Part shown: positions 648-60,365 of the stretch, one piece after another | Layout: the number at the start of each line of letters is the position of its first letter | Numbering within the stretch: position 1 is the stretch's first letter | Source of the DNA: Balanoglossus misakiensis | Lineage: Eukaryota > Animalia > Hemichordata | Assembly: GCA_040954595.2 (NCBI GenBank) | Contig: CM082576.2 | Location: forward strand, 10,233,129 to 10,297,128 | Direction of reading: 5' to 3' | DNA: 64,000 bases | Notes under the pieces: model-generated | Told to the model about the DNA's origin: nothing | Database searches by the model: none | The model's input: only the letters and a program-made list of their open reading frames with translations | Made by a program: the position numbers and the translations under genes

Positions 648-9435
<8,788 letters not shown>

Positions 9436-14808: not shown

Positions 14809-16572
14809 ATGCTTGGCGGGAGAAGTTTAGTTGGGAAGACTAATTGCAACTTTGTCCACAACGATGAAATATGGTGAGTATTATAAAGCAACAATTTTTA
14901 ATCTTCCGTGAGGCGAAATCCCGAACTTTGTCTACTGTGCACGACCTTCCTGACTGGCAAGCGTCAAGTGTGGGTTTCTCCACACGATTGTAAATCCACG
15001 TGTTAAAAATATTATTCTGTGTTTTTTTTTTTAATAATACAATGTGCATGGTTTTGCCAACCATAATGCAAGTGATCTAGTTTTTAAGTCTACAATATAT
15101 TTTCGTCGGTGTGACAAGGTTTACATCTGATTTGGCTAACAATCGTTTTATTTTAAGGATCAGAGAGTCAGTCAAGCGTAGTTAAACTAAATACCTTTCT
15201 CTGTTCACTATTGTTTAATTCAACAATGCTTTTCACATTGTCTTCAGAAGAAAGACACGTTTCAGTTCAATTGCGCCTTCTATAATTTCAACAAATGCCG
15301 TCCAATTTGACCAAACCATGGAACCCCGTACATCCCGTGTTATGTACTTGTGAACTTCTTTAGTAATATGATTATAGGTTAAGCTTATCTTACATCTGAT
15401 CAACATTAAATGAAAATGGACAACAATTTACAAGTACTCATAACTGTTAAATTCTACAAGTTGAAAGTAAACCTAAGATCTACTGTATAACGTATTATCC
15501 TGCCTACAGCATATGGAGAATGATACGAAGTGCTTCATTCAGTCTTGTGGTAGTGGGTGACAGAGACGCTTGTTCTAATTCTTGGAGTACCTTTTATCGC
15601 TTTCCCTGATTTTTAGGAAAGATCATGTCAACTACGAGTTGCAGTCCCTAAGAAAATGGCCTGACAAGTGGGGGTTTCTGACGCACGAATACAGCAGAAT
15701 GCACAAGAGACTCGTCGGCGAGAGTCCAAGCCCAGAATTTCCGCCAATCATTGGCAAAAGCGGCAGCCCTGAGCTGCTGCCGTCTTTGACTCGGACACCA
15801 AGTAGACCGCCGTCCAGGGATTCCAAGCGGAGACCCCTGGAAGAGCGAGCTGCTGAAAGAGCAGAAGAAACCAAATTGCCATCATTGGTGCAAGCGAAAC
15901 CAGGGTAGGCCTATTATGGTTATACAGTCAAATATTGGAAATATGTGATCATGGGGTGTCATTCCGTCAGTGGGCAATGTCATGCCGCAAAAAGTCGTAG
16001 TATAAGAAAGAGTATAGGAATGAAGTTTTGGTAGTGCCATCCTGTATATAAGCACTTTTTTCGACAGACCTATAGGTTTAATAGTCCAAACTCACAACAT
16101 TTTTGCTCGGTCCCAGATTTTGTAAATAAAAGGGGGTTTTGGTCAACTTCTTCCCCATAGTTCACAAAAAGGGTGTTTTTGTTGAGTCCTGGAAAAGAGT
16201 GATCTTATAACTTTGCGTAACGCGCACGGACGCCCACTTTCCCTGGGAGTGCCACCAGGCCGGACTGGTCTGGGTTGGGATTTTGGCAAGCAGAAATGCA
16301 TGCATGATCATACACGTCTACTGAGCGTCTGTATTTGTCTGTCTTCAAGACCCACAGGTCAAGTTAGGAAACACGAGGAACTTCCGTTTGAAAAACGCAT
16401 TACAATTGAAAGTCGTGTGCCGTTCCCGCGAACGACTGCCGAAGAAATTGGTTGGAAGTCCGCCAGACCAGAGTACATGCTGGAAAAGTATGGAAGATAT
16501 CTCAGTCCGAACGCTAGAGGGCAGCAGGGTATAAGAAAAATGCTGAAGTGGCCTTACCAAGGACTGTATTAA
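14809..16572 (+). CDS. Ciliary microtubule inner protein, C20orf85/CIMIP1 (LLC1)-family. Exons 14809-14873, 15617-15904, 16350-16572
   Basis: NFVHNDEIWKDHV..E...KWPDKWGFL and PRTTAEEIGWKS...LKWPYQGLY resemble human C20orf85 motifs (QDEIWK..WPQNWGFL, PQTTQGFIGWRS, LCWPKQGVH). Splice phases are consistent. AATAAA at 16631. The exact paralog is uncertain. Confidence 0.8.
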
Positions 16573-28172: not shown

Positions 28173-31100
28173 CTACTCTTTGGCTCTTTTGGTTTCCCTG
28201 TGATTGATCTGATTGAAAATTCCGCTGATTTTCCACATGTTTTTGTACCAGAGTCTTTCGAGGCGGTCTATCCCGCCGAACCCGTACACGGCCACCGTGT
28301 AGAAAACGCAGGCCGCGATGAAGAACCACAGGCCGATCTTTGTGGTGATCAACAGATACAGGAAAAACGCGTTGAGGACTGTGTACACGACCAGCGACAT
28401 TGTGAAGTACATCCTCAGCCGAGTGCTGAGTCCGGACTCGACGTTCTCGACGTTCGCGAATTTCTTGTTTCGGTAGAAGTCGCTCAACATCTCCTCTTTC
28501 TCTTTCCATTTCTGCTTGCACCAGTTCTGCACGCCTTCCTCGTTGATGGGGATGGTGGCTATCGGGTGGCGCCGGATGTGGAAGTGGATCTCCCGGGGGA
28601 AGTTGCCCTTGACGATGTCCAGCTCATAGTGGGGGATGTTCTGTGGGTAGCCAATGGTGATGTCGTGGATGGCATCCAACATACCCTCTGAAATAAAAAT
28701 CCCCCAAAAAGGTCAAAATAAAGTATGAAATGATGAGTGTTTTCAGTAGACAGTTGCATATCATATTACTACATCTAGTCATATCTGATACGATGACCCC
28801 CCCCCCCCCCCCCCCCTGTACAATGTAATTGCTGGAAACCTTTTTTCACTCACCCTTTCTCAGCTTTTCCACCAAAAATGTCAGTCCTGTCGTTCTCGGA
28901 TGTAGAACATACTCGTACACTGGTAAGCCATTTTTCTTGGCGTACTCGGCACCCCTCCGTTTGTTATCATCGCTGAGGTCAGTGCCTGTAACAAAGGCAA
29001 TCCTATCATGAATGGCTTGTTGTGAAAACTGTTTTCACATTTGATGAGAAACAGAGAAAAATCCAGTCTTCTAAAATATGTGATAATTTTTGGATTATCA
29101 CAGTTGTGTGAATTTGGGCCACATCTACACAACAAATTCATACTTTTGGACCAAAATTTCAATTCCATTACTTCCATGCAAAAAAAAATATTAAAATTTA
29201 TATTAAAATGTTCTCAAAAACTCATATCTCTCACTCACCCTCAGGGAATATAAGAATCTGGGTTGGGTGTCTGATTGCAGAAAAGTAGTCCAAGATGTCA
29301 GTCAGGAGTGGTTTATCCAACTCCCAGTTGCGCCGAATAAATATGAAATGGCCAGCTTGCATTGCCCAACCTAGAAAGAACAGACGTGTCCAAGTTGAGT
29401 AAAAGTGGTCTGATGTCACAGATTTCTAAAAGAGAGATAATGATACTCATGAGAGAGGTGGTGCTGGTGGTTCACAGCAGGACCTGTGTTAATTTTACAC
29501 AGACATTGTATGCAATGAAGACATTACTGCAAGCTAACTCAAGTCAATTATATTCAAAATAATACAAACATGCTAATATCTCAGGTCAATGATTTCAATC
29601 CTGGGATTTATTTCATGTTTTTCTTTAAAAAGGCATATTTCAGCACCTTGCCTACAAACACCAACAGACATGCATACCTCCTCCCCAGATGTTTTTCAGG
29701 CCTCTTTTCAACATGATCTTCTCGTGGTGCAGGGAACTCCTTCGTATAAGACACGACCAGAGGAACATCCAGTCTAACCTCGTCCTGTGGTTCATTATGA
29801 TGATACTCTTCTCGCCTGGCTTGAAGTCATCCCCGCTGACTGTTATCCTGATGCCAAACACCATTTCTGTTGCCAAGGAAACGTACCGTGTGAGGGTGAA
29901 ATAAGCTGACTGTAGTTCTATCTCTGCATTTTATGGCTAAACTTGGCACAATTACAGCTTAAAGGTACCCAGTGTACAGTCACCTATGCAAATTTAACCA
30001 CTGTTCACATGGGAAATTCAAATATAGCCAATCACAGATTTACAGTGGGCGGTACATGCGAAATAATTTGTACCACAAAATTCAAACACTTAGACATGGC
30101 CTTTTGAAAAACCAGTAAATTAGAGGTGACCACTTACATGTACCTTTAAGTTTAATAGTCACGATCAAAACAAGATGACATAAAATGAGTCATGAATCCA
30201 TTGCTTTTACATGTGCCATGAATACACAGAGAGCTTATCTTGTTCTGGGGAATAGTATCCCTTTCACCCCCAGTTCCCACTTTAGAGGTCCAATCTTACC
30301 ATAGAAAACAATGGGTTTGGACTGAACCGTGGTGGTGAAAGGGTTAAACCGTAATCATGCTCTAAACTTTGAAAGTTTGATGAAGTAAAAGGGTTAAAAA
30401 AATAAATTTATTTTCACAGAGAAATGACAGAAATAGTATGTTTCAGTGACAGAAAGTGGGATTGAGCAGACATGTTTTCCCACATCTCACTGACATTCTC
30501 ACTGTCTGAATTAGCAGACACAGGAAAAGGCATCAGCTTTACATTTGTCTGTGCTTGTTCGAAAATTTGCATGTATATTATTCTATGCGCAGTGACCAGT
30601 TTGACCTCAAATGAGCCCTGCCGGACGCTCATCATCAATCAATCCCACGTAACAGGCTGCAGACTTTGAACATTTGGGTTGATTATTTACGCAATGACAC
30701 GACAAAACAAGCAGAACAGGTGTCACTATGCATGCAAATTTTTAATTTTTTTATAATAAAAATGGAATATTTGTTCAGAAGCACCATTGGTAGGTCATGT
30801 AATACTTTACTCACCGAGAAATGCCTTGAGATAACATCACAAATCCATGGAAAAAGAAAAGAAAAGAAACGGATTACAAATTCTGCTTTGTTATTTTTAT
30901 CAGATGGTACTTTGGTTCATGTGTTTATCATTCAGGTGAAATTTCCCAACAACTGAACATACTCCTTGACGTATGTCGGTGACACATTTGGGTTAATTAA
31001 GCACAACAAAAATGTGATTTATGCATTGTTTTATCAATTTGTTCTAGCTCTAAGACTAGACAGATCAAACAGCAAGTTTTGAGAAGACGTTTTGACCAGG

Positions 31101-31356
31101 AAAACCATAGTGACTAGCTAGCTCACAATGGAATAACCATTACATGTAAATTATCAAGTTATTAGATACTTACAAGTGGAAACGTGACCCATTTTGCCAG
31201 TAAATGATCCTGTATTCTCCTGTAGAGGGGGGTATGAATAAACAACAGTGGCATGAACGGTCCCATGATGTACACTGCCCCGAGAAAACTTGTCAGCCAG
31301 AAAATGGCTACCACAAAAAATATTCCCCCAAACTTGTTTCGAAACATCTCCGCCAT
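28173..31356 (-). CDS. LCLAT1: Lysocardiolipin acyltransferase 1. Exons 31356-31174, 30824-30815 (10 nt), 29866-29678, 29370-29239, 28985-28854, 28687-28173
   Basis: Acyltransferase motifs MNHRTRLDWMFLW, GWAMQAGHFIFIRR, LIFPEGTD, YEYVLHPRTTG, LDAIHDITIGYP and FPREIHFHI, plus a C-terminal dilysine-like KRAKE. Probable 5' UTR exons lie near 31876-31952 and ~32752-32850. Confidence 0.95.
30259..30343. mobile_element. piggyBac-like MITE copy
   Basis: CCCTTTCACCCCC...GGTGGTGAAAGGG|TTAA, homologous to 27170-27258. Confidence 0.65.
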
Positions 31357-31518
31357 GTTTGGTTTGTTTCCCCGGGGGTTAGGACAGCAGAAGACTGACA
31401 CACGGCGGCAAATCTGAAATAACAAGAAACACCTTGAATGAATGAATTAATGATGATAAAGACAACACCAACACCATCATCACAACCACCACCATCATAA
31501 TCATCATGTTGCTACTGT

Positions 31519-31519
31519 T

Positions 31520-31604
<85 letters not shown>

Positions 31605-31629
31605 CCATCATCATCACTATCAGCATCAG

Positions 31630-31661
<32 letters not shown>

Positions 31662-31695
31662 CCGTCATCGTCATCACCACCATCATCACCATCAC

Positions 31696-31734
<39 letters not shown>

Positions 31735-31735
31735 T
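31519..31735. repeat. (ATC)n trinucleotide microsatellite in an LCLAT1 5' intron
   Basis: About 70 ATC/ACC units. It is the source of the spurious poly-D, poly-M and poly-S ORFs. Confidence 0.98.
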
Positions 31736-34667
31736 TGATGACCATACCACTGGCACTGAAGTAGCCTGTGCCCTGACCAGCTAACACATAGATTTATGGA
31801 TTTGTGCAAGTCCTATACTTATGTGCAGAGAACTTATTGCCTGAAATATACTGCAAATATATTTGCTTACATTACCTCTTTGCCAGATCCGGTCAACCGC
31901 CACCCGTCTCCAGTCTGAATGCTTAAGTTATCCCATCAACATGAACTTGAACCTGAGGATACAACACATTATGTTTGACACAAGGTTAAATCATTAATTA
32001 ATGATCAACAGCTTCTCTGCTTTCTGTAAACACATATCTTATTAGACATATATATTGTTCAGCAGCAATTTGAAGAAAAACTGTCAACAGTTCCAGAACA
32101 ACAGTGTCACTGAGAACACCGACTTGGCAGTCTGCCTGAATGCGTTCTAACTTCAGCACTGGTGTAAATAAGACTTCAATCAGATAGATGTAGCCTTGTA
32201 GGATGCCATATGGGGGGGGGGGGGGGATACACGACCGATTCGAGCATTGCTCTTCAGATGAAAGTGGAATTTTGAACTTTGAGACTGGGCGCTTTTTCAT
32301 AAAATGCTTTCTTTAATTTTAATACTGGAAACAACTCGTGGAGATGTTGGCTTGGTAACGTTTATTGACCACAACTGACTTGACGTAACTATGAACTGTC
32401 TGTGGCTTGCTTTCGAATTCATTATGTAATACCAGTAAGTTCCATCACCCATTGAAATAGTACAGACTTTAGCAACATCTAAAATGCATTTGGTCGAAAA
32501 CGCTCTAATTGTATCCGTTAGATTTTATAGACCTTGCAATCTGGAGTCAAAAGATGTACGACCTACGGTCACAAGATCACTGATCACCCATTCACGAATC
32601 ATCATTATCATTTATCAGTTCTTGCACTTGCAGTTGCACTGGAGTTGCAGCAACAAAACCACAGTGAACTAAACGATAAAACAGGCCTTTTTCGCTGAAT
32701 GACAAACGAAAATACCTACTCATAAAGTGAGCAGAAAATTCAATATACTTACGGTATGTATTACTAGAGAAAGCCACCCGACAGCGTTGATACCGTCAAT
32801 AATCGAAATGCAGAAGCTGCTGATGAAGTATGTCAAAGGTCTTCACCAAGGTCATGTGGGTTTGTGGGTCACGCGATATCATCTGATTGTATGAGGGCGC
32901 TATACAATTGCGCAATATAACATCGACTCCGGACACTTTTCAGCACTGCATTGGTCAGTTTCTTCGGTCGGCTCGGAGGTGGTGTGTAAATTTTGGTGTC
33001 TGACCCCCACGGGAAAAGGCAGAGGAATCTGACCTCTAGAAGTGGAGGAAAGCGATTTAAACCATCCGAGTTTATTATGCATATTACAGTATCTGATTAT
33101 CGTAAGCTGTTACAACATGTAAAAGCAGATACATCGATTCGAGATATATGGATATGATTCAAATACGATTACACTGTACAAGACACACACAAATATATTC
33201 AGAGAGAGTGGGTTTATATATTTATTTATTTATCTATCTATACTAAAATTGATTGGTAGTGGGTTTTTTTTAGTTTTGTTTGTTTGTTTTTGTTGTTTTG
33301 TTTGTTTGTTTATCGGAGAAAAAATATGTTCGCAACGACGTTGCTTACATTTTGTTCAGAAGGTGAAGTTACTAGTATAATCATCAGCACGATCATCATC
33401 ACCATTATCATTATGCCACCATATTCAATGACGTGTGTTGAACAAAACTCGGATGAGCGACAGCTGTGATGACTGTGTATGGTCGCGTTTCCGTAGTAAT
33501 TGGAAGGCATACTAGTATTCCCCATAACCATCACATGGTTGAACTCTCCGCCATCAAGCCGGTGAACACAGCGGCATATTTTTCGCATCGTTGCCAGTAG
33601 CAGAGAAGGGGCACCCATATGCATTAATGTTCAACAGACTACCAAGGTAAGATTACTTGATTGTCATCTATGAACGACACGATTGCTCCCGTCAGACCGA
33701 AAATGAGAGATTTGGGAGTGGAAAGCATGAAACTAGGCATACACGAACTGTTTCCAGTAAATTTATCAATTGGATGCGGGAATTACAATCTACAATGCCA
33801 CCGTGAACCAAAGTTGTGGTGCCTTAAAATTTGTAAAATTAAGCTTAAAATTAAACTGCAGAAACTCAAATTCAATATCGCATCGGAAAAATTAAAACAT
33901 GCGTTTGTTTGGAACCCAGCTGCGAAATCTACAGTCTGGCGCAGTACCACAAGTTGCACGTTGGATCCATATGCAAAGCGAGATAATTTACAAAATAAAG
34001 CACACACCATCTAATCGAGAATGAAAGAAATTTGAAAGAAGTGGCAGTGTTCACCGATGATGTGTGTATATGTAAGCCCGATATGTAAGTGTGAAGTATG
34101 TTTATAGATATAGAATTTAAAATTATAGACGACATGCGTTAAATTACTGTGGTGATTATAGCCACTAAAGCTTTCACAGATGTTATAAACAGAATAACGA
34201 AACTGCGGAAAGTCGGGTGGGGGGGGGGCATTATATAATATTCACCAGGTGTGACCGTTGAGTTGCAAAATACAACGCTGTGATGAGTACACAATCTGCA
34301 CCGAATACACAGACAGACATTTTTGTTAAATATTCTATCTTTAACACGTACTAATATTTCTTGCAGTGTCATGGCAGTAATTCAGAGGTAACACACACAG
34401 AATCAAGACACGGACATGGTAGAAGCTTATAATTAAAATTAGCGAAAGTCCTGTTGGAAGGGTGATTGTAGGGCAAGTACAATGCTTCGCGAGGTAAAAT
34501 AATCAATCTATTCGGTTTATTAAATTCACCATTCGATGTTTGCGCACAATTTCGCACAGAAAATAAATCAACTTTAATGTGTTAATGTAATGTTAACAAA
34601 ATCATGAGAGAAATACCATGGGCACAATTGTCACTGACTGAAATTTGTCTTTAGGCGCATCAGGAAA

Positions 34668-36513
34668 ATGTTGACAGATGACTTGATCACACAGTATACG
34701 CCCACATCCACGCCTAGGCTTCGGGAACGTCCATTAGTAACCGCTTTTCCTTTTTCCTTTTATGTCATGCAGTTTAAATTTTTCCTGATCGGCCTAGCAA
34801 CGGCTTCAGCCATCTTCAGCACCATCATTTACAAAACCCACTTGGATGACCGAGATCTTGCCATCAGCCCCTATGAACGCGAGGCACATACACTCAGGTA
34901 TTTACTCTCACCCCCCCCCCGGGAGATGCCACGGTGTTAAACTAAAGCATGAACAAATAGCATGATACAAGCCACACTCTATATTGCAAGTGGTGGTGAA
35001 TCACATTGATATCTTGTCGTGTACGATTTTTGTGCTCGTTTTGATGAGAAAGAAAAGCCAAAATGACAGAAAAAATAAAGGCATCCATGACGCTGTAGGG
35101 ACCGGGTGTAGAGCATCAGCTTAAAGGTTGAATATCCCAGGTCAATGCGACTATACCGGGCAACTTAATTCAATTGTCGGGGTGCGAAGTTGTCAATACC
35201 AGTACGTAGTTTCAGGGGTGACAAAATAAGGATTTCTTTCAATATTGCAACCTTGTGAAGTTGCCATTTCGATTATAAGCAAGAAAAGCTTTAGAATAGT
35301 TCGTATAATACTCTCGACTTCACGAGAATAACTTTTCATGAAATGTACCGGGTTTTTTTTGGTTTTTTTTCACAGACTCCTCAATTCACACGATCACGGT
35401 GATCACAAATGGAATCGGAATATGCCTTTGGCTGACAATGAAGAAACTAGATTAAAAGTAAGCGATCTTGCCAGTGCAGAATCCTGCGGCAAACAGAAAC
35501 ACGTCGCCTTTATCAAACCACACAAAACGGGAGGAACGACCCTTGCATCGATCATCAATCGCTTCGGCTACGACCGTGGGGCATCGTTCGTGGTCAGCAG
35601 GTTCAACCGACGCAACGGTCATCTGCGCCAGCTGCCTATCAAGGCAGACAGCCCGCGGAAACTTCTGCTTCCGCCGGTGGGCGCCAAGGATAGGAACTGG
35701 AAGAACTACAGGTACAACATGGTCGCGGTTCACATGATATACAACGAAACAGCAATGAGGTCCTTCATGGAGCCCAACACCCGTTACATCACCATACTGC
35801 GGGAACCTGTTTCCCAGTTCGAATCGTTCTTTTATTACATGCAAGTAGGGCACTCGGTTCTGAGGGCTGGAAAACCAAGCAACCTGACAGCGATGGAAGC
35901 CTTTTTCGAAAGACCCGAGTTTTACATGCCCAGATTGTTAAACGATCGCGACAAAGACTCGAGAAACAATCAATTTTATTACCTGGGACTGAGCCCCAAG
36001 GACTTTGAGGACGATCGAAAGATTAAAGAGACAATCGACAAAATCGAGAGAGACTTCTCTTTGGTTTTGATAACAGACTACTTCGACGAATCGCTGGTTT
36101 TGATGAAGAAACTCTTCTGTTGGGACATGGAAGACATTCTTTACATCACCAAAAACCAACGGGCCACCCGACACGCTGTCCCGGAAAATGTGGCAGGGAA
36201 AATTCGCCAGTGGAATCGAGCCGACGTCCTTTTGTACGATCATTTCAATCGCACGCTTTGGAAGAAAATAGATGAATACGGACCCGACTTTGACAGAGAT
36301 TTGGCGGAATTTCGCAGACATTTGCAGTCGGTGTTCAACGAGTGTGTCGACAAACGTTCCGACATTCGTCCAAATGCTCTCATCATGAGATCCAAAGTTG
36401 AATTCCACGCGAAAGAGCACTCCAGTCAATTCTGTGAAAGCCTTGCCCTTTCCCACTTGAAAATGCATAACTTGATTTGGAATAGACAATACCCCAGGTT
36501 TATAAAGCTATAG
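34668..36513 (+). CDS. Galactose-3-O-sulfotransferase (GAL3ST / cerebroside sulfotransferase family). Exons 34668 (or a downstream Met)-34897 and 35376-36513
   Basis: 5'-PSB motif FIKPHKTGGTT, 3'-PB motif ITILREPVSQFESFFYY, FSLVLITDYFDESLVLMK..CW and WNRADVLLYDHFN. N-terminal signal anchor FFLIGLATASAIFSTIIY. Donor CAG|GTA at 34897, acceptor CACAG at 35375. Confidence 0.92.
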
Positions 36514-37256: not shown

Positions 37257-39369
37257 ATGGCTGATCCTGCAGATACCACACAAATTACTGTACATAGCAA
37301 ACGAACTTTGATTCAGATGACAGACATTGTAATTACGGGGGCAAACTCAGTCATCGATAAACACATTGACCTTGATGAAGACCAGAGAACACGCTTTAAA
37401 GAACGTTTTGCAGAGGTAAGTGTGACACTCCCAACATGGACGTACATAGCTGCAATGATTGTAGCGGGTGCTGCTATGCTGCACACCAGTCAACCAAGCA
37501 GCACTGGCCGCTACAATCATTGCAGCTAGGACGTACACACTGTCAACACTCACAGACGTTCGTAACGCGGACGCGCATTTCAGTATCTCACAGTCTTGGA
37601 GCAAGACTATCACAGTGCATGCACTGCAGTCTGCGAAAGCCTTTGCTGCGGGTCCGTAGCCTCACCACTCCCGATCCAAAACAACTGTCCGATTTCTCCA
37701 CTCCTGTCTGACAATCAACATAAACTACACATATCTCTCAGCCAATGTAACAATCCCATCCACCACAATGTTTGTGTGGACTGGAGATGTAGAAGGAATA
37801 GTCAATTGACAGTGAGCACTTTGTCTCAACAGTGTGTGTTTGTCATTTCAGCTTTACAGAGATTGCGTCCATAGCAACGTGATGTGTGATGGTAAAACAT
37901 GGCAAGAGGCAGAGGATGACCTCAACAGAACACAAGGTGCTGTATATTATAAGAAATGAGTTGCTTTGTTTTAACCCTTTCACCACCATGGTTCAGTCCA
38001 AACCCGTTGTTTTCTAGATGATACTAGTACGTTGTATAATGTGATGTATCTTTCTGCTCTACAGAGTGTGAACCGATGAATTTAGATTTGCATCTGCAAG
38101 TAGAAAAGCAGCTTACGCAGATAGATGAACATCTGGTGAAGACGACAAGAAAAAGAAAGTATTATCCCAGAAAGATTACAAAAGATGTCATGATTGAACA
38201 GAAGTGCCTTCGCGAGAGACTGGTGAGTTTACAGAGTCAGAGAATTTATTGCAGAATTTATTTGACTTTGTTGACATACACCATATTTTTTACAAAAACA
38301 TGTCACACAAACAGTAAATCCTGGTACTCTTGCCATTGTTTCTGTATCCACATGTATCGACCAATTGTTAAAATTATTGCTTTTTTAGGAACATTATGAG
38401 CCAGAGAGTCTCCCAACGCTTACAATCCAAGGAGATCTACTTGATAACAAAGGAAGTGAGTACATTATTGGTTTACTGTAGAGGAAGCTTCCAAAAAAAT
38501 ATTTGTATGATATTGCACGCATTACGCTGAATGTTTTTCCATGTGAAAACAGAAGTTTTCCTTGTGCATGATTTTGAAGCTAAAAGTTTTTTTCTTTTCT
38601 AATTTGTTATTTTTTTTTCTCTGCAGTTAAAGATAGCATTCTAGATAGAAACCAGCACATAGCAAAAACAATGTCGAGCCTTACTAAGGTAAGAAAATCC
38701 TTGATCACAATTCATGTGGAAGATGCGCTAAACATACCTTTATCTGAGCTGGTCGAATTGATCTTAATTTGGTACACAGTTGCAGTTCTGAAGTGGCTAG
38801 AACTTATTAGGTTTTGGCATGCGTAGCGCGCATGATAGTGAAGTTTTTGACAAGAAATAAAAATGGCAGTGTTGATGTCTGCAAGTTATTATTGTGAAAG
38901 AAAGGAATCATATTATTGCACCTGGTGAGGGCGCTATCTGTGACAGTGCCAATTAGCAATTGATTCATTTAATTGTGAACCAGATTGACATAACTTCTTC
39001 TAATATCACTACCCCCTGGTACTTATCATGGGAAAACAATTAAATAAGCACATTTTCTTTGAATTTCAGTCACTGCCAAACACAGAGGTCCAGTCAGAAA
39101 GAGTCCTGGGAATGCTCGAACAGGAGTCGAAAGAACACAGCAAAACTCGTAAAGTTATCTCCAAACCTCTACAAGAAGAAGGCGTGATGATGAAATCGCT
39201 GACGCCTTTGAAACAGGCTCTGGAGAAAGACGAAACGCCAACACCCAAGCCGAGTAAACAGCGGAAATCATCCAAGGACAATTTGGCATTTCAGAGAATA
39301 AAAAGACATTCTATTACTAGATACAATTTACGGAAAACTCCTGCAAAAGAGAAAGTGGCGTCGCACTGA
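37257..39369 (+). CDS. NSL1: Kinetochore MIS12-complex subunit NSL1. Exons 37257-37415, 37852-37936, 38065-38222, 38389-38455, 38627-38688, 39070-39369
   Basis: VHSKRTLIQM, VHSNVMCDGKTWQEAED, TTRKRKYYPRKI and KSLP align by eye with human NSL1 (CTSKRAVTEM, VQENISINGQAWQEASD, ATKRKQYPRKI, KSLP). Splice phases are consistent. Confidence 0.85.
37447..37528. mobile_element. Academ(H)-like mini-MITE, 82 bp
   Basis: TIRs TAGCTGCAATGATTGTAGCGG / CCGCTACAATCATTGCAGCTA, with a perfect 9-bp TSD GGACGTACA (37438-37446, 37529-37537). Confidence 0.8.
37975..38016. mobile_element. Truncated piggyBac-like MITE end
   Basis: TTAA|CCCTTTCACCACCATGGTTCAGTCCAAACC is the reverse complement of the right end of 27170-27258. 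Confidence 0.6.
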
Positions 39370-48134: not shown

Positions 48135-51100
48135 TTACTTGAGTTTTCCCAGTTCTTCCTGTGAGGGCACATACCAGTAGGTTCCCTTGACACATTCAGT
48201 CAATCGCATCACATCGTCAGAGAGGCCATCTTTATCTGTTGTAGGGGTACAAGGCGAAATGATATCAATACTTACTACCAAGGTTCAAATATTTGAATTG
48301 TACACACAGGGAGAGGACACTATAGAACATACAGTTTCTAGACATGAATGTCATTCAGTTGAAAATGTACAGTAAATATAACCCATACATGTACATGACA
48401 GTTGGCAAGACTGTTTGGTGTATGCAATTCTATAATTTTTGTAAACATGTTCAAAAGATAATGAAGGTCAAATGCACAAATCAGATCTAAATCTTCCAGT
48501 GCTACGGTACATTCAGATAATGTAATACAGCAGCAAGAATTGGTTATGTCACTATTTTGAGCAGAAACAGTTGTGGACAGGTCATCAGTACCCAGGGAAT
48601 ACATGGACTTCGGACAATTACAAAAACTTACCAGCGCCAACCATTCTATCCAGCATATACTCAAAGTTATCTGGAGCAGCGGCATAGGCAATGAAGAAGA
48701 GGCCGGACTCCCCAGTCACACTGCCATATGGCTGAGACTGGCGTACAATCTCAAACATCTTCTTCTGTTGGAAGTTGGTGCCACCTGCATACATAGAAAG
48801 TAAAAATTCATGAGGCCACAGGTGTCTTCAGATACTTCCAGATTAGAACATCAGATTCTTGAAGTTTAAAATGAATTTTTGCCTTTTTCATTACCTGTCA
48901 TGCGTGCTACGTGAGATGTTGCTGGCTTTCTGGAGAGTTCAGTGCTGTCTCCAATGCTACGTCCAACCCAGCCTTCTTTCACCTTGTCTGAGGAAATAAA
49001 CAATAGTAAAGCATTGTTTTCACGACAGAAAAATACAGGTAAAGAGTTCACAGACAGACAAGCACAGTCCAGTCCATAACAGCCCCAGGCCATACACACC
49101 TGCAGGGACTAAAAACATCGAAGCGTACACTAACCTTTTTCCTTTTGAATGACATCATGTTTGTGGATCCATTTTTGTGTAATCTGCAAGTCAAATAAAA
49201 TCCTTTTATCCTCTTTAAACAAAATCACAGTACCAGTAATACAGGCTATCTGTACCGGGTACGTACTTCCAGTTTATAACATGTAAAAGTTGTTCCAACA
49301 ATTTTTCAATTATTTATGTGACAGGATTAATGTACTGTCAACCATGTGAACAATTCTTTGCCAAACACAGTTGACAACTTGAGACACTGTATCCAAAAGT
49401 TTTTCCCCGTCTACAAGAAAATCACAAGCCGTGTGTTACGTTATGTTTTTAGGTTATGTAATTGTGACGACAAGAAGATTTCTTTACCAGGTAGCTGCTG
49501 CCGTTAGATTTGTCCACTGCAACATCAAATCTGCTGTCATCATCGGCGGGATTCTCGGTGCCTAGAGAAGGACAAACAGAGAAAATCTTGGTTAACACAC
49601 AGAAATTGCACACACTAGTACAGAAATATAATTCTTGAATCGCACCTACTAAAAGATGAAATATCGGCACAATACCAGCATGCCTTCTCAGTGATCACTT
49701 TACCTGTTCACATAAACTCATGGTATGCTAGAAATCAGCTTAAATGCTAAAAGTATAATCATGCAATATATTGAAAAAATCAACTCTTCAATGCTATAAA
49801 ATCATGATATGTTGACATCCAGTGTAAAATTACGAGCCTGCAATGCCGACAATGTATTTAGCAACCACAGTTCTAAGTCTCCTTACCATCAATGAAGCCT
49901 GAAAGATCTCTGCCATTTTGGTAGACCCAGCCATAAATGTCTTCTGCCGAGTCCACTGAATCAGCTGGCAGCTGGCGGAGAATCCTCTGACACAGTTCAA
50001 ACAGTTTGCTGTAGCTGTTGCTTTTAGCATGGATGAAAATGTCACCACCTGGAAAAAAAAGATACAATTAATAAATCTCTTGTTCTTTATTATTACGAGT
50101 GCTCAGATTTACTATCATGTGATTATGCTTCTTGACCATGCATCAGAGTAGACTGATAGCACAAAGTCAAACATTAAAATTGACCATCTGAACTGCATGA
50201 AAGAAATATCAATATTTTACTCATTAAAATTATCCGTAAATGCTTACCTGTGCTAGGCATGTGTCCTAGAGAACCTTTACGATGAGGGTAAGTGTAATTA
50301 TGGCGAGGTTTCCCTTGAACCTATTCCGAACAAATTATTTTCATTCGATAAGGTGGCGAGTAATATATAGTTAAGTTTCACAAGTAAAACAGTGTGCACA
50401 AAACGTACACGATTTTGAATTGGATAAAAACCACCAAAGAGTAAGTGTCATTTAAATTCACATTCTGACCTGAGTTAGGTTCTTTTAAATTGTAAGAAAC
50501 ATACTTGGTATGTCAACACATTATAAATTGTTTCTCAGAACATTGAGAAAATGGATGTGCCCCACAGTCCTTACTTTGGCGATGAAATTCGGACCAAATG
50601 CGACACCAGCAAAGATTTCATCATCTTCATCTCGTAGACTCGGTGGACAGACCGCATCCACGTGACTTGGGATGTTTGCAACCACTTTGGCGCACTGTTT
50701 TGCATCGGCAGTTGGTTTAAGATGGATCCACAGATACAGGGCGTGCTCTTTGGTTCCCGAAATCACCTGTCAAGGAAACCAGCTTCAGTGACATAGTTCT
50801 TATCAAAACAAAACACAGTGCCATTGTACAAAGTTGTGTGCATATTAACCTATACATTTTGTATACTGTTCAGCATCATTTTCAGGGATGGAAATTGGAT
50901 AATTTTGTGTATACCATCGTTTAACTGTATGCCATATCTGCGACAGCGCGGCACAGACACATAAATTGTAGTGGTAACAAAAGCCCTTTTTGTACCTGCA
51001 ATTCAACACTGACCATTACAAAAAAATGAAATTTTCAAATGGTGAAGTTAATACATGACATACCGATGGCTGGGGAGAGCTTGTAGCTGCAGACACAGTA

Positions 51101-53393
51101 CCTATCATTTGTAAGTTGCTGATAAATGATGGCTTGTCACTGAGGGCACAGTGAATTCCATAGGCGGTACCTGCCAACGCGGCTGCTGACACTGAAGCAT
51201 AGGCCAACTTGCGACCAGAACTGTATCTTCCAGCCTGGGAGCTGAATAATCTTCTACCTGAAGTGATACAAATACACAATGTCATGTAGGTCACATAATA
51301 TATAATTGCAGTGTTGTGCTCGTAGGCAACTTGATGAAGTTAAGGTCATAGACAAAGTTGACATAATACCAGGGTACAAACTGTATCTTAAAATTTCCAC
51401 CTTATAATAAGTGTCCTCCTAAAAGCTGAACTTCCCAAATTTTAGCAGTGGAGGAATGAAAACACAAACATATGGATAACTGGTTTTGTAACCAAAATAA
51501 TATATTCGTCAATTCCTGATTGGGTAATTATTTTCTTCCTATTCTTCATATTCTCTAGACTCATCAAATTTAAAATGTCTGTTTTCAAATGTTTGTATAG
51601 GGACAAGTACAGGGAAGAGGGACAAAATAGCATTGGCCATGTGAAGATAACATTTCTGTCTATCTTTAATATTTGTATAACAACACACTGGCATTTTGGT
51701 GGCCAACACATCAAGGTGCTGAGGCCCCGGACATGCAGAGCAGCAGTATCACCACTGTCCGTGTCGTCACACTGATCAAAGGTTGAGTGAAAAGTATATA
51801 CACACATCAAATCACACCAGGTTACAGCTTGGTCATGGTTAAATAACAAAGGCAACTTTTTAATTACATGTGCATGGTTTTTTTTTTAAACACCTGGTCA
51901 AATGCACAACCCAATGTCTTTGACATTTAGTACCATACCAGGTTTAGCCTTCTTGTGGATACAAGATCTTTTATCTATACACAAACATAACCCTGAGCTG
52001 AACTGCCTGGAAGGTTATACCTAATCTTGTCATCACCATAGTTTAGACTGTCCCAACTGTTTGCAAGACTGATTCGATCAAAAGTTCTATATGCATACAT
52101 TGAATATATGACCCTGGTCTTATGTTTAGTTCTATTGAGTATTGGGTCGGTTTTGCTGCTCATTTTCAACCTGTATTATATTCCTAAGACAATTGACTAA
52201 AATGTCGTTTTCAACAGGTTTTCTTGTGATGGAAGGTATAATGGCACTGCACCATGAAGTACATGAAGTTATCTCTTTGCAGAATAAGACCAAGGGAATA
52301 GTGCCAGATATGTGCAAAAAGTCTCTGATACTGCTTAGAGTTATTCCACCATGCTTACAAAACAGTGAATCTTTGAGGTCACGAAATTGGGTTTTCTTAC
52401 ACAACATGCAAACTCATTATCCCTTTCACCACCATGGTTTCGTCCAAACCCATTGTTTTCTATGGTAAAGTTTGATGTATATAGAGAGAAATGGGTCCAC
52501 AAATGGCTATTAATCCTATTGACATTGTCTTTTCATTACTACTGCAGCCAATATCGCTTCTATTAAAGTGGGCGGGGCAAGTTAGCCCTAATCATACAAA
52601 AAAGATTTCACAGATTATCTGTGGGGCTTTTAATTTGTTTCCAATAAAAAGGTGATTCAGCGGGAAAAAATGCTGGCAGGCAAATGATTTACTGAATAAA
52701 CCTTCAGATTTGGGTTTTAGTAATTACTACAAGTATATTCGCTCCTGTCCCCTCTTCTGAACGTTCCACCATAGACCCTATGGTTCCACCTTTCCTGAAA
52801 ACACTCTACACCACAGTCTCAACAAGCGCTACCAACACAACCTGCATCGCACCGCATACACAGCTACATGTAATATTGTCGCAATAGTTCTTTCCAGATT
52901 TCCCATTCGAAGAAAACAAGAACGCAGCTAAGCGCTGAGTCATGTACAGAGGTCACAACATGTGGGTTATTGTACCAAAATTAATGTGCAGCACAAGAGG
53001 CTGTGGGTGTGTCCTGAACACCACTACCTAGACGTAGGTGCCCAGCACTCGACGTCGGAGCTCGGTTGCACTGCAGTATAAAACGACATGCCGTTGTTTG
53101 GAGGATTCAAGATAGTCACGCACCTAGCTGCAATGATAGCGGGTGCTACCAGGTTGACTGGTGTTCGCACACTGCAGCCCCACACCAGTCTAGCGCAGTT
53201 GCAGCCCCCCGCTATCATGGCAGCTATCACGCACCTTGTCATCCTGCTCGTCACAGTGTCCAACAGCGAAAAGTTTGGGGAACAAAAATGCATCATTAAA
53301 ACGCCAGCACTATGCCCCAGGGGTGTTTACTTATTAATTAAATCACTTACCAGCGCTGCGGGAAGCGTTGAAAATGTGCCTGAAAGATGCCAT
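48135..53393 (-). CDS. DyP-type (dye-decolorizing) heme peroxidase, YfeX/DypB-like, with a putative mitochondrial presequence. Exons 53393-53351, 51257-51064, 50766-50575, 50320-50248, 50048-49887, 49561-49488, 49183-49135, 48987-48895, 48784-48632, 48235-48135
   Basis: MPSTGGDIFIHAKS, GRDLSGFIDGTENP (GXXDG), GSSYLITQKWIH, WVGRS, SHVAR (proximal His), IVRQSQPYG (distal Arg), GLFFIAYA, MLDRMVG..DGLSD and GTYWYVPS. Nine GT-AG introns in consistent phase. Confidence 0.93.
52421..52474. mobile_element. Partial piggyBac-like MITE copy
   Basis: CCCTTTCACCACCATGGTTTCGTCCAAACCCATTGTTTTCTATGGTAAAG, homologous to the other copies. Confidence 0.6.
52763..52789. mobile_element. Minimal P-element-like remnant or excision footprint
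   Basis: GTTCCAC|CATAGACCCTATG|GTTCCAC: a 13-bp palindromic core between 7-bp direct repeats. Confidence 0.5.
53125..53226. mobile_element. Academ(H)-like mini-MITE, 102 bp, same family as 37447-37528
   Basis: TAGCTGCAATGATAGCGGG...CCCGCTATCATGGCAGCTA, with a perfect 9-bp TSD TCACGCACC (53116-53124, 53227-53235). Confidence 0.8.
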
Positions 53394-58356: not shown

Positions 58357-60365
58357 ATGGCGTGTGATATAGCAGAAATATCCGAGATTTCGTCAATTTT
58401 GTCAATTTTAACTGTAATTTTGTGTTTTTCTGCCATGGCTGTCTTCATAATAAGGTGAGTAAGGGTGTTTGTAAAATGGAAATGGTATGGTTCATTCTAA
58501 CCGTCCAAGTTCCAGTCGTTGTCGCGTCGTCTGCCACTTTGGCCAACGTCAAGCATTATGATACAACATACCTGCTGCTTACATGCTATACAGCATGATA
58601 TGATACTTCTTGTATAAACTTACAGATTGGGAGTCAACCCATTACCAACTGTCAGCTTTCCAACAGTAAATCCTGTCCCTGCAACAGCCATGGTCGGTAT
58701 TAGAAACCCTTTCACATTGGAAATCTCAGATCCACAATCAGGTTCTTTAAAAAGTAAGTGAAAACTAGCAGTTATATCCTGAAACTATTTAATTCTGACA
58801 CAGTGCATTGTAGTACTCAACCAGCGAATCAGATAATAATAATAAATTTACTTACATTATACCTATTTTTTTTCTGGCCTTATTTTACAGATGGTGTAAA
58901 ACTTAAAATGTCATCAGAAGTTCCCTTCGTATTGGATGCATACTGGGGACTGGAGATCAATTCAATGTATCACGTCTTAAGACATTCAAGTGCAATATTT
59001 CAGGAGAACAGAGAAGAAACTGACATTTTCGTAGAGGAGAAGTACTTATGCAAGAACGGTTCTCACCAGTATCCTTTGTAATTAATCTTTTTGTCTGAGT
59101 CCCTCAAGTTTAGTTTGGAGACGAACGACGTGGGTTGGGTGGGCTTGCCAAGGTTAACACTTTGTTTAAAGCAAGCAGTGTATTTGCTAAACCCCTGTAA
59201 AATGCGAATTAATCTGTCCAATCAACTTTTTAGTCACATTCTATGAAAGCAATCTCACATTTCCTTAATATTTTAGTTTTGATAACTGTGAAGATAAAAT
59301 GCTGACACTTCATCCAGATGTCGAAGGTGAGCAACTCTTGGACCTTGGTCGACCACCCAGGACTAAATATCCATTGGTGGTGATAATGTCTGAAGCTGAC
59401 CAAGAGACTACTGATGAAGATGAAGAGAGTTCGAAAATTGTAAGTACAGTGTATCACTGATTTTAAAGTGTGCATACTGTATTAAGTGTAGAGACTCTGT
59501 CAGGGATTTGCCCTGGTCATTGTTGGTGCAAAGGAAAATGAATGTATTCAGGTTTATTATGGAAATTAATCCACAAGTCATTTTGTTGATCTTCTACCCT
59601 ACATTTATTCATTAAATGCAGATATCAATGCTGACGGCCATTCATTTACCCGATAGAAGCTATTGTATGAAGTCACACACAATTCACCAGTTAGTGGTCA
59701 CAAATAAAGGGAACTTTTGCAACTTGGAGGTAAGAATGACGTTAGAATTTGACTTGTACCTCATATTCACAAAAGAATTTGATGAAATATGGTACATCTT
59801 GAGAATTCAGTCAACATTTGTTATCTCAGTTAAGTCTGGTACATGTATGTCCAATGCTTGGTTCTTACCATTCTTGTCTTTGATGGGACATAGGGCCCCC
59901 TTCAGAAAACAAGTGCTAGAAGGAGAGACACATAACTATGTGAATGAACTTGTAAGAACCAACCACTTTCAATTTCTTTTGTAGAAATTGTTCATGTCGA
60001 CGGAACCGAGTGAAGATGGATCATCGAGAGGACCGGAGGACTCTGATCTGTTGACAGACGCTAGCGCTGACTTGGACACATTCAGCTGCCAGGGCAAAGA
60101 CTGCACAGTGTGTCAGAATGCTTCGATATCCAGAGTGATTCTCCCCTGCAGACATGCCTGTGTGTGTCAGCAGTGTTTCCCCATGCTGAACAAGTGTCCC
60201 ATGTGTAGGGGCCCCATCGAATCCTTCTTCGATATGTATAGAAATCCGACCGCAGATTATTGTGATGAGGAACTGGAGGAGGGTGAGGACAATGTGTCCA
60301 CCTGGATCACGAAGTTCGAGAACATGTGTGAGAGGTTGAACAGGTGGTTGGGCCTGAGGCATTGA
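58357..60365 (+). CDS. CGRRF1: Cell growth regulator with RING finger domain 1. Exons 58357-58454, 58626-58753, 58891-59068, 59277-59439, 59622-59729, 59985-60365
   Basis: N-terminal TM segment, RNPFTLEI, AYWG, PRTKYPLV, AIHLPDRSY, KLFMS and a C3HC4 RING (CTVCQNA..VILPCRHACVCQQC...CPMCR), all collinear with human CGRRF1. Confidence 0.93.
59069..59276 (+). other. U12-type (minor spliceosome) GT-AG intron in CGRRF1
   Basis: 5' splice site GTATCCTTT and branch point TTCCTTAAT (59261-59269), 7 nt before the intron end. Splicing here restores the reading frame. Confidence 0.88.

What the first reader, a model, noticed from the sequence alone, without database searches (positions are those of the whole stretch)
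48135..53393. Intron-rich animal DyP peroxidase with an apparent mitochondrial (bipartite) targeting sequence
Seen in sequence: a complete DyP-type peroxidase with intact catalytic motifs (GFIDG, SHVAR, IVRQS), split by nine spliceosomal introns and set among ordinary animal genes, so contamination is very unlikely. Its first ~55 residues (MASFRHIFNASRSAGRRLFSSQAGRYSSGRKLAYASVSAAALAGTAYGIHCALS) are Arg/Ser-rich, have no acidic residues and end in a hydrophobic stretch. Established: DyPs are mainly bacterial and fungal, are absent from vertebrates, and are little studied in animals; this presequence architecture is the kind that sorts yeast cytochrome c peroxidase to the intermembrane space. 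Inference: an ancient horizontally acquired or patchily retained peroxidase, repurposed as a mitochondrial H2O2 scavenger or heme/porphyrin-handling enzyme (E. coli YfeX oxidises porphyrinogens).
Basis: partly seen in the sequence, partly recalled or inferred. Interest (0 to 1): 0.8.

Follow-up and report, generated by a model that had tools for sequence, protein, structure and literature searches.

The report
Ancient mitochondrial intermembrane-space DyP peroxidase
This is an intact ten-exon gene, likely from an acorn worm, for a DyP heme peroxidase of a subfamily already known from invertebrates and protists, and its conserved leader predicts release into the mitochondrial intermembrane space, which would give many invertebrates a peroxide-removing enzyme there that vertebrates are reported to lack.

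Summary
The gene is real: 10 exons, 9 GT-AG introns, 377 aa, all DyP catalytic residues, 83% identical to the acorn worm Ptychodera protein. It belongs to DyP subclass P1, already described from invertebrates and protists; one likely member (Echinococcus EmDyp) is a shown heme peroxidase/catalase. So an animal DyP is not new. Direct transfer from bacteria into animals is rejected (AU p=0.0014): animal copies form one clade inside a eukaryote group with Naegleria, Echinamoeba, Mucochytrium and Lapot, and share introns. The targeting reading gains support. 80 of 94 homologues with long leaders have a basic, acid-free presequence before a mild Ala/Gly hydrophobic stretch. 73 of 94 carry V/L-x-A|A just before the folded domain (shuffles 8-14), a likely inner-membrane-peptidase site. 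Named protist members have similar leaders. Mussel gel spots are smaller and more acidic than the precursor. Against: no localisation data, and the Naegleria orthologue is missing from a mitochondrial proteome list. Best reading: an old eukaryotic intermembrane-space H2O2 scavenger; I found no paper saying so. Its electron donor is unknown.

The parts
53351..53393 (-). Exon 1 (residues 1-14, first half of the presequence)
   Evidence: ATG plus GT donor; 10 of 14 residues identical to Ptychodera, 9 of 14 to Glandiceps, 8 of 14 to Saccoglossus
51064..51257 (-). Exon 2 (residues 15-79): rest of presequence, hydrophobic stretch, variable linker, VSA|A motif
   Evidence: residues 1-48 are 37/48 identical to Ptychodera, linker 49-67 only 4/19
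51142..51207 (-). Ala/Gly-rich hydrophobic stretch (residues about 32-53), predicted stop-transfer segment
   Evidence: hydropathy; present in homologues, median start 34.5
51085..51096 (-). V-S-A|A motif (residues 69-72), predicted inner membrane peptidase site; predicted mature protein 306 aa, 34.0 kDa, pI 6.2
   Evidence: V/L/I/F-x-A-[A/E/S] in 73 of 94 homologues, 56 at one offset; mass; folded domain starts just after it in the Ptychodera model
50575..50766 (-). Exon 3: start of DyP domain, with the conserved acidic loop DEDDE
50248..50320 (-). Exon 4
49887..50048 (-). Exon 5, ending in GFID of the GXXDG motif (distal Asp221)
49488..49561 (-). Exon 6
49135..49183 (-). Exon 7
48895..48987 (-). 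Exon 8 with SHVAR (proximal His288, Arg291)
48632..48784 (-). Exon 9 with IVRQS (distal Arg308) and GLFF
   Evidence: Pfam PF20628 E 1.7e-8
48135..48235 (-). Exon 10 with proximal Asp351 and stop codon; no PTS1 at the C-terminus

Best explanation
The gene encodes a subclass-P1 DyP heme peroxidase that is likely imported into mitochondria, likely cut free into the intermembrane space, and likely removes hydrogen peroxide there. Inferred steps: residues 1-31 act as a presequence, probably cut by MPP near RRLFSS; the Ala/Gly-rich stretch 32-53 stops transfer in the inner membrane; the inner membrane peptidase cuts at VSA|A (71/72) and frees a 306-residue enzyme; it binds heme through His288 and reduces H2O2 through Asp221/Arg308. 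The donor is untested: cytochrome c is a candidate (about 30%) because of conserved acidic loops, and a catalase-like cycle or small donor is as possible. The gene was likely inherited from an early eukaryote with its leader and lost in vertebrates, tunicates and fungi.
For: Shown here: gene structure and residues; DyP fold of the 83%-identical Ptychodera protein, high pLDDT from about residue 75, low before it, best match V. cholerae DyP 5de0 at E 3.6e-30. Leader: 94 of 108 Met-start full-domain homologues have an extension of 45 or more residues; 80 of these 94 have a hydrophobic stretch starting at residue 20 or later with at least 4 basic and at most 1 acidic residue before it. V/L/I/F-x-A-[A/E/S] in the last 12 residues before the domain: 73 of 94, 56 at one offset; shuffles gave mean 8.2 (max 18) and 13.8 (max 22) in 500. 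MPP-like R-x(1,2)-[FLYI]-[SA]-[ST]: 36 of 94 against 6.6 shuffled. A hydrophobic residue at -3 and a transmembrane segment upstream are the stated IMP substrate features (PMC8835746 passages). Naegleria, Willaertia, Echinamoeba, Lapot and Mucochytrium proteins have basic-then-hydrophobic leaders; Naegleria and Willaertia also have V/I-x-A|E. Family members with a classical short signal peptide look different (P0078, P0143). Mussel gill spot seen at 30.4 kDa, pI 6.00 (PMC5302490) against 42.1 kDa/pI 8.86 for the Mytilus precursor and 33.9 kDa/pI 6.03 for the predicted mature form; quagga mussel spot at 27.0 kDa, pI 5.7. EmDyp binds heme, has peroxidase and catalase activity and is induced in aerobic growth. 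Tree and AU test; shared introns.
Against: No localisation or N-terminal sequencing exists for any member in what I read. The Naegleria gruberi P1 protein (XP_002676075) is in neither the 946-protein mitochondrial list nor the peroxisomal list of PMC8134430 Supplementary Data 2; it may be unexpressed or lost in purification, but it was a chance for support that failed. The EmDyp authors read its N-terminal helix as a secretion signal, without testing. Both gel spots are 10-20% smaller than the predicted mature form, the mussel one rests on 2 peptides matched to Trichoplax, and a cut just after the hydrophobic stretch gives the same pI (6.04, 36.7 kDa), so they do not pin the site. The published Imp1 motif has Asn at -1 and Asp/Glu at +1; the animal proteins have Ala-Ala. 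21 of 94 homologues lack the motif (many flatworms), as do Echinamoeba, Lapot and Mucochytrium. The homologue set is mollusc-heavy and not independent. No TargetP or MitoFates run was possible.
Confidence: 0.62

Rival explanations
1. Mitochondrial, but not released by IMP: the enzyme stays anchored in the inner membrane facing the intermembrane space, or is freed by the rhomboid protease cutting in the Ala/Gly-rich stretch.
For: The hydrophobic stretch is mild and rich in small residues, as I recall for rhomboid substrates; 21 of 94 homologues and three named protist proteins lack the V-x-A|A motif; pI of the mussel spot also fits a cut after the stretch.
Against: The motif sits at a fixed place and is kept while the linker around it diverges (4/19 identity to Ptychodera); gel masses are nearer the domain alone than the 36-39 kDa forms.
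Confidence: 0.14
2. An intermembrane-space enzyme whose main job is oxidising porphyrinogens or handling heme, like E. coli YfeX.
For: YfeX-type class P/B DyPs are the nearest solved relatives; YfeX is a porphyrinogen oxidase by the title and abstract start of PMC3215433; late heme synthesis passes through this compartment (recalled).
Against: Identity to YfeX-type enzymes is only about 30%. The gene is kept in nematodes (Trichinella; Table 1 of PMC9719856), which I recall cannot make heme, though the Trichinella copy appears to have a secretion-type leader. EmDyp data point to oxidative stress.
Confidence: 0.1
3. A matrix enzyme: the hydrophobic stretch is too weak to stop transfer and the whole leader is removed in the matrix.
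For: The window's stretch is among the weakest (15-residue mean 1.36 against a median of 1.69).
Against: The stretch is kept at the same place in most homologues and in protists; a signal-peptidase-type motif after it has no clear use in the matrix.
Confidence: 0.07
4. A secreted or ER-lumen enzyme with a long signal peptide or signal anchor cut at AxA, as proposed for Echinococcus EmDyp, perhaps with a leaderless cytosolic isoform from Met65.
For: EmDyp preprint; AxA is also the ER signal peptidase rule (recalled); some family members do carry signal peptides; the window's protein has an in-frame Met65.
Against: About 30 basic, acid-free residues precede the hydrophobic stretch, the stretch is Ala/Gly-rich, and the AxA lies some 15-30 residues after it; the signal-peptide members have the stretch at residue 2-3 and the domain at 20-23. 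Met65 is not kept in Ptychodera, and Mytilus has no Met between 1 and 131.
Confidence: 0.05
5. Origin rival: animals got the gene by transfer from another eukaryote (or gave it to one) rather than by plain descent from the eukaryote ancestor.
For: The sister of the animal clade is the rhizarian Lapot gusevi with 99/99 support, not an opisthokont; no named choanoflagellate or fungal P1 protein appeared in the listed hits; protist-like loci share no intron position with the window (2 junctions).
Against: Only the best 120-150 hits were listed and most protist rows are unnamed; the Lapot record is one transcriptome; P1 spans Amoebozoa, Excavata, Sar and Metazoa (PMC9719856 Table 1).
Confidence: 0.25

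Closest known systems
DyP subclass P1 (Yoshida and Sugano 2022, PMC9719856)
   Same: Eukaryote-only class P clade with hemichordates, cephalochordates, many protostomes, placozoans, cnidarians, Amoebozoa, Excavata and Sar; the window's protein sits among hemichordate members.
   Different: The paper analysed only the DyP domain, calls P1 unexplored, and never mentions mitochondria or localisation (0 occurrences).
Echinococcus multilocularis EmDyp (bioRxiv 10.1101/2022.11.07.515413)
   Same: Intron-containing animal DyP with an N-terminal hydrophobic helix; heme-binding peroxidase with catalase activity, induced by aerobic growth.
   Different: Read by its authors as secreted plus cytosolic isoforms, untested; 434/461 aa. 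I did not retrieve its sequence, so its leader type and P1 membership are inferred.
Bacterial class P/B DyPs (V. cholerae DyP 5de0, E. coli YfeX 5gt2, K. pneumoniae KpDyP)
   Same: Same fold (TM about 0.9 over the target) and heme residues.
   Different: About 30% identity, about 300 aa with no leader; the acidic loop near residues 125-129 is not seen in the two alignments.
Dictyostelium DyPA (PMC8230527)
   Same: Eukaryotic class P DyP.
   Different: Subclass P4, intronless, no leader, shown cytoplasmic.
Yeast cytochrome c peroxidase Ccp1
   Same: Works-like comparison only: heme peroxidase sorted to the intermembrane space by a bipartite leader (recalled; PMC4420034 lists it as mitochondrial).
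   Different: Unrelated fold (peroxidase-catalase superfamily); processed by m-AAA and rhomboid as I recall; use of cytochrome c by the DyP is untested.

Membership tests
DyP-type peroxidase | GXXDG motif with distal Asp | tested here: met
   GFIDG at 218-222; Asp kept in 67 of 69 aligned homologues
DyP-type peroxidase | Proximal His, propionate Arg, proximal Asp, distal Arg | tested here: met
   SHVAR 287, IVRQS 306, DDVM 351; His, Arg and Asp invariant in alignment A1; aligned to VcDyP
DyP-type peroxidase | Two ferredoxin-like folds | tested here: met
   Model of the 83%-identical Ptychodera protein matches DyP structures, E 3.6e-30; the window's own spliced protein was not folded
DyP-type peroxidase | Heme binding and peroxidase activity | not testable with these tools
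   Shown only for the relative EmDyp
DyP subclass P1 | Falls in the eukaryote clade with Metazoa, Amoebozoa, Excavata and Sar, apart from bacteria | tested here: met
   14-row clade 97/95, animals 100/99; same in the 70-row quick tree; taxa match Table 1 of PMC9719856, whose own sequences I did not have
Bipartite IMS proteins processed by IMP | Basic, acid-free matrix-targeting presequence with MPP site | tested here: met
   7 basic, 0 acidic before the hydrophobic stretch; MPP-like motif enriched in homologues; by my own counts, not a trained predictor
Bipartite IMS proteins processed by IMP | Hydrophobic stop-transfer segment after the presequence | tested here: inconclusive
   Present and conserved in position, but mild (15-residue mean 1.36)
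Bipartite IMS proteins processed by IMP | Cleavage motif downstream of the segment with hydrophobic -3 | tested here: inconclusive
   V/L at -3, Ala at -1 in 73 of 94; the stricter Imp1 motif with Asn at -1 and Asp/Glu at +1 is not met
Bipartite IMS proteins processed by IMP | Measured IMS location and IMP-dependent processing | not testable with these tools
   No data found; Naegleria orthologue absent from one mitochondrial list
Cytochrome c peroxidase (Ccp1 family) | Peroxidase-catalase superfamily fold | tested here: not met
   Fold is DyP
Tat-exported class A/I DyP | Conserved twin-arginine signal | tested here: not met
   RRx[FL][LIFM] in 1 of 94 leaders, any RR in 30 of 94; nearest structures are class P/B
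Gene transferred directly from bacteria to animals | Animal copies group with bacteria to the exclusion of protists | tested here: not met
   AU p = 0.0014

The most novel reading that the evidence does not exclude
Subclass P1 DyPs are an overlooked ancestral mitochondrial intermembrane-space peroxidase of eukaryotes, kept from Naegleria and amoebae to most invertebrate phyla, that takes electrons from cytochrome c through conserved acidic loops. It would be an unrelated-fold counterpart of fungal cytochrome c peroxidase, with a peroxisomal DyP clade as its sister, lost in vertebrates.
Probability: 0.25. Interest if true: 0.75.

Novelty: new variant of a known kind. Interest (0 to 1): 0.5.

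Why it matters
Animal mitochondria are usually thought to clear peroxide with thiol enzymes, and to lack a heme peroxidase like yeast Ccp1 (recalled). If P1 DyPs sit in the intermembrane space, molluscs, annelids, flatworms and hemichordates have an extra branch of mitochondrial peroxide removal. That bears on hypoxia-reoxygenation tolerance in bivalves and on parasitic flatworms, where the enzyme was proposed as a drug target on the assumption that it is secreted. It also corrects the suggestion (PMC4420034) that flatworm DyPs are isolated transfers. The claim is cheap to test by import into yeast mitochondria. The gene itself is an ordinary new member of a published subclass.

Tried and rejected
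No genome is held for the window. No RNA run was listed: no evidence either way, and no reads were laid. Pfam on single exons hit only 1 of 7. The ESM Atlas search of the leader alone gave no usable hit; the whole protein returned its own cluster of 240 eukaryote members. The careful 70-row and 35-row mixture-model trees did not finish, so those have SH-aLRT support only; bootstrap and AU values come from a 24-row LG+G4 tree, a model with a higher false-rejection rate by the tool's own notes. Searches for a bivalve or jellyfish mitochondrial proteome listing the protein found none. The first ID search in the Naegleria supplement failed on the underscore and was repeated with a positive control. 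The taxid printed for P0241 resolved to a fungus, at odds with a marine protist transcriptome, so I left that row unnamed. Earlier scan findings: none. Rejected: contamination (introns, neighbours, hemichordate orthologues); Tat signal; peroxisomal targeting (no PTS1); direct bacterial transfer.
Full report
OBSERVATION. The minus strand from 53393 to 48135 holds ten exons that splice in frame through nine GT-AG introns into a 377-aa protein. Residues 1-54 have 6 Arg, 1 Lys, 10 Ser and no acidic residue, and a mild hydrophobic stretch at about 32-53. Neighbouring ORFs carry ordinary animal domains (7 of 13 window ORFs scanned hit Pfam) and GC is even. No genome or RNA run was available.

IDENTITY. 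A search with exon 5 gave 82 proteins among 91 candidates, the named ones all from invertebrates. The spliced protein is 83% identical to Ptychodera flava, 79% to Glandiceps and 71% to Saccoglossus, so the window is likely from an enteropneust hemichordate. The Ptychodera protein maps onto all ten exons and nowhere else in the window. A model of the Ptychodera protein (69-row alignment) has pLDDT 43-53 for residues 1-70, 81 for 71-80 and above 90 after that, and matches class P/B DyPs such as 5de0 and YfeX 5gt2.

EXON 1. It could not be checked with reads here. It is 10/14 identical to Ptychodera, and residues 1-48 are 37/48 identical while the linker 49-67 is 4/19. In relatives, short contigs carry leader and domain in one reading frame (for example L036, 1475 nt, 383 aa; 12 of 13 such loci inspected gave an ORF with a leader), so the spliced form with a leader exists in the family.

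WHAT IS KNOWN. [quoted passage not shown] Ulrich and Brehm (10.1101/2022.11.07.515413; parts 1-3 of 4 and passages; figures and supplements not seen, and Fig. 1 with the leader sequence would bear on this report) show heme binding, peroxidase and catalase activity and aerobic induction for EmDyp, and call its N-terminal helix a secretion signal without a test. Zamocky et al. (PMC4420034, passages) proposed that Schistosoma got its DyP by transfer from lower eukaryotes. Dictyostelium DyPA is cytoplasmic (PMC8230527, passages). I found no paper placing a DyP in mitochondria in searches (listings; the library lacks most subscription journals).

THE LEADER. From the 148 proteins plus the window's own, 108 start with Met and have a whole domain; 94 have an extension of 45 residues or more and 14 are shorter. 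Of the 94: hydrophobic stretch starting at residue 20 or later in 84, at most one acidic residue before it in 90, at least four basic in 88, all three in 80. A V/L/I/F-x-A-[A/E/S] motif lies within 12 residues of the domain in 73 of 94, 56 at one offset; shuffling the leader gives 8.2 on average and shuffling the same 12 residues 13.8. An MPP-like motif occurs in 36 of 94 against 6.6 shuffled, a Tat-like motif in 1. The patterns were chosen after seeing the alignment and the set is rich in molluscs, so these counts describe conservation and are not independent tests. A review (PMC8835746, passages) describes bipartite presequences cut by MPP then IMP, with a hydrophobic residue at -3 and a set distance from the membrane segment; its Imp1 motif (Asn at -1, Asp/Glu at +1) is not met by the animal Ala-Ala. 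Among distant hits, Naegleria, Willaertia, Mucochytrium, Echinamoeba and Lapot proteins have basic-then-hydrophobic leaders, and Naegleria and Willaertia have V/I-x-A|E. Two unnamed members with short classical signal peptides (P0078, P0143) and leaderless members (a Mya paralogue, two acanthocephalans) show what the alternatives look like.

PROTEIN-LEVEL HINTS. In blue mussel gill a DyP-like spot ran at 30.4 kDa, pI 6.00 (PMC5302490 table rows; 2 peptides, matched to Trichoplax). The Mytilus galloprovincialis precursor is 42.1 kDa, pI 8.86; cut after VFA it is 33.9 kDa, pI 6.03; cut after the presequence 39.3 kDa, pI about 7; cut after the hydrophobic stretch 36.7 kDa, pI 6.04; it has no Met between 1 and 131. 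A quagga mussel spot ran at 27.0 kDa, pI 5.7 (PMC11036304 table row) against 33.9 kDa/6.34 predicted for the zebra mussel protein. These fit removal of the leader but are smaller than predicted and could be breakdown products. Against the reading: the Naegleria P1 protein is in neither list of PMC8134430 Supplementary Data 2 (946 mitochondrial, 78 peroxisomal), while a paralogue ending in SRL is in the peroxisomal list.

ORIGIN. In a 136-row FastTree, a 70-row quick tree and a 24-row bootstrap tree, animal copies group together (100/99; 22 rows at 99, four of them unnamed and labelled animal by me), inside a eukaryote clade (97/95) apart from bacteria. Holding animals with the 8 bacterial-type rows costs 54 log-likelihood units, p-AU 0.0014 (four of those rows are unnamed and assumed bacterial). 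GTDB relatives reach only 26-43% identity (35 loci). The tree is not a clean species tree: the sister of animals is the rhizarian Lapot (99/99). In 69 metagenome loci, 21 gave 41 splice junctions; 22 coincide with the window's introns 3-7, 9 lie one codon from intron 8, 4 mark an intron the window lacks, 2 are in distant loci at another site and 4 are single, doubtful calls; intron 9 was not seen elsewhere (loci unnamed and partly redundant). Partial gene models of Trichoplax, Lottia and Helobdella start exactly at the intron 2 boundary. The gene was therefore likely in early animals with its introns.

MECHANISM. Shown: gene, residues, fold of a close relative, conservation of leader and motif, phylogeny. 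Inferred: import, stop-transfer, IMP cut at 71/72, soluble 34-kDa enzyme in the intermembrane space, H2O2 removal. My odds: mitochondrial about 0.9; facing the intermembrane space about 0.83; the full route with IMP release and peroxide removal 0.62. The donor is open. Acidic clusters at Ptychodera 126-130, 204-205 and 229-231 are acidic in about 85-100% of 69 homologues at the positions listed, as are several Tyr/Trp; these could bind basic cytochrome c, but no surface map or complex was computed.

VERDICT. The gene is a new member of a published subclass. The new part is the likely compartment and age of the whole subclass, which rests on sequence inference and weak gel data. Novelty: new variant of a known kind; interest 0.5.

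Noticed in passing
Proteins P0206, P0190, P0191, P0232, P0260: A eukaryote DyP group next to P1 ends in PTS1-like tripeptides (SRL, SKL, SKL, CKL, SKL; 5 of 8 rows). The near-identical Naegleria gruberi protein XP_002669769 is in the peroxisomal sheet of PMC8134430. This suggests a peroxisomal DyP clade.
   Followed up: partly
P0175 (Mucochytrium quahogii): This stramenopile member lacks the GXXDG aspartate motif but keeps SHVAR and a long leader: possibly an inactive or altered enzyme.
   Followed up: no
P0143, P0078, P0153 (Trichinella), P0251, P0253; Some family members have swapped the leader for a signal-peptide-like start; a Mya paralogue (P0149) and acanthocephalan copies (P0082, P0166) have no leader. 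Retargeting seems to have happened several times.
   Followed up: partly
P0154, P0155, P0157, P0178, P0194, P0209, P0210: Molluscs have extra, fast-evolving DyP paralogues, several still with basic-then-hydrophobic leaders.
   Followed up: no
window 51108 (minus strand): In-frame Met65 just before the VSA|A motif could start a leaderless form; not kept in Ptychodera.
   Followed up: partly
window 48895/48784 (intron 8): Intron 8 lies one codon upstream of the position seen 9 times in other loci, within a Gly-Gly repeat: possible intron sliding.
   Followed up: no
window 31380-31810: Long trinucleotide (GAT/ATC-type) repeat tract giving poly-Asp/Ser/Ile/Met open frames, near the 5' end of an acyltransferase gene.
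   Followed up: no
window 800-60400: Other genes: kinesin light chain-like TPR (6199-9438, minus), LLC1 domain (15579-16572), eIF5-like by recall (about 21000), lysocardiolipin acyltransferase-like (28173-31446, minus), galactose-3-O-sulfotransferase (35332-36513), Mis14/NSL1 (38040-38399), RING finger gene (59985-60365).
   Followed up: partly
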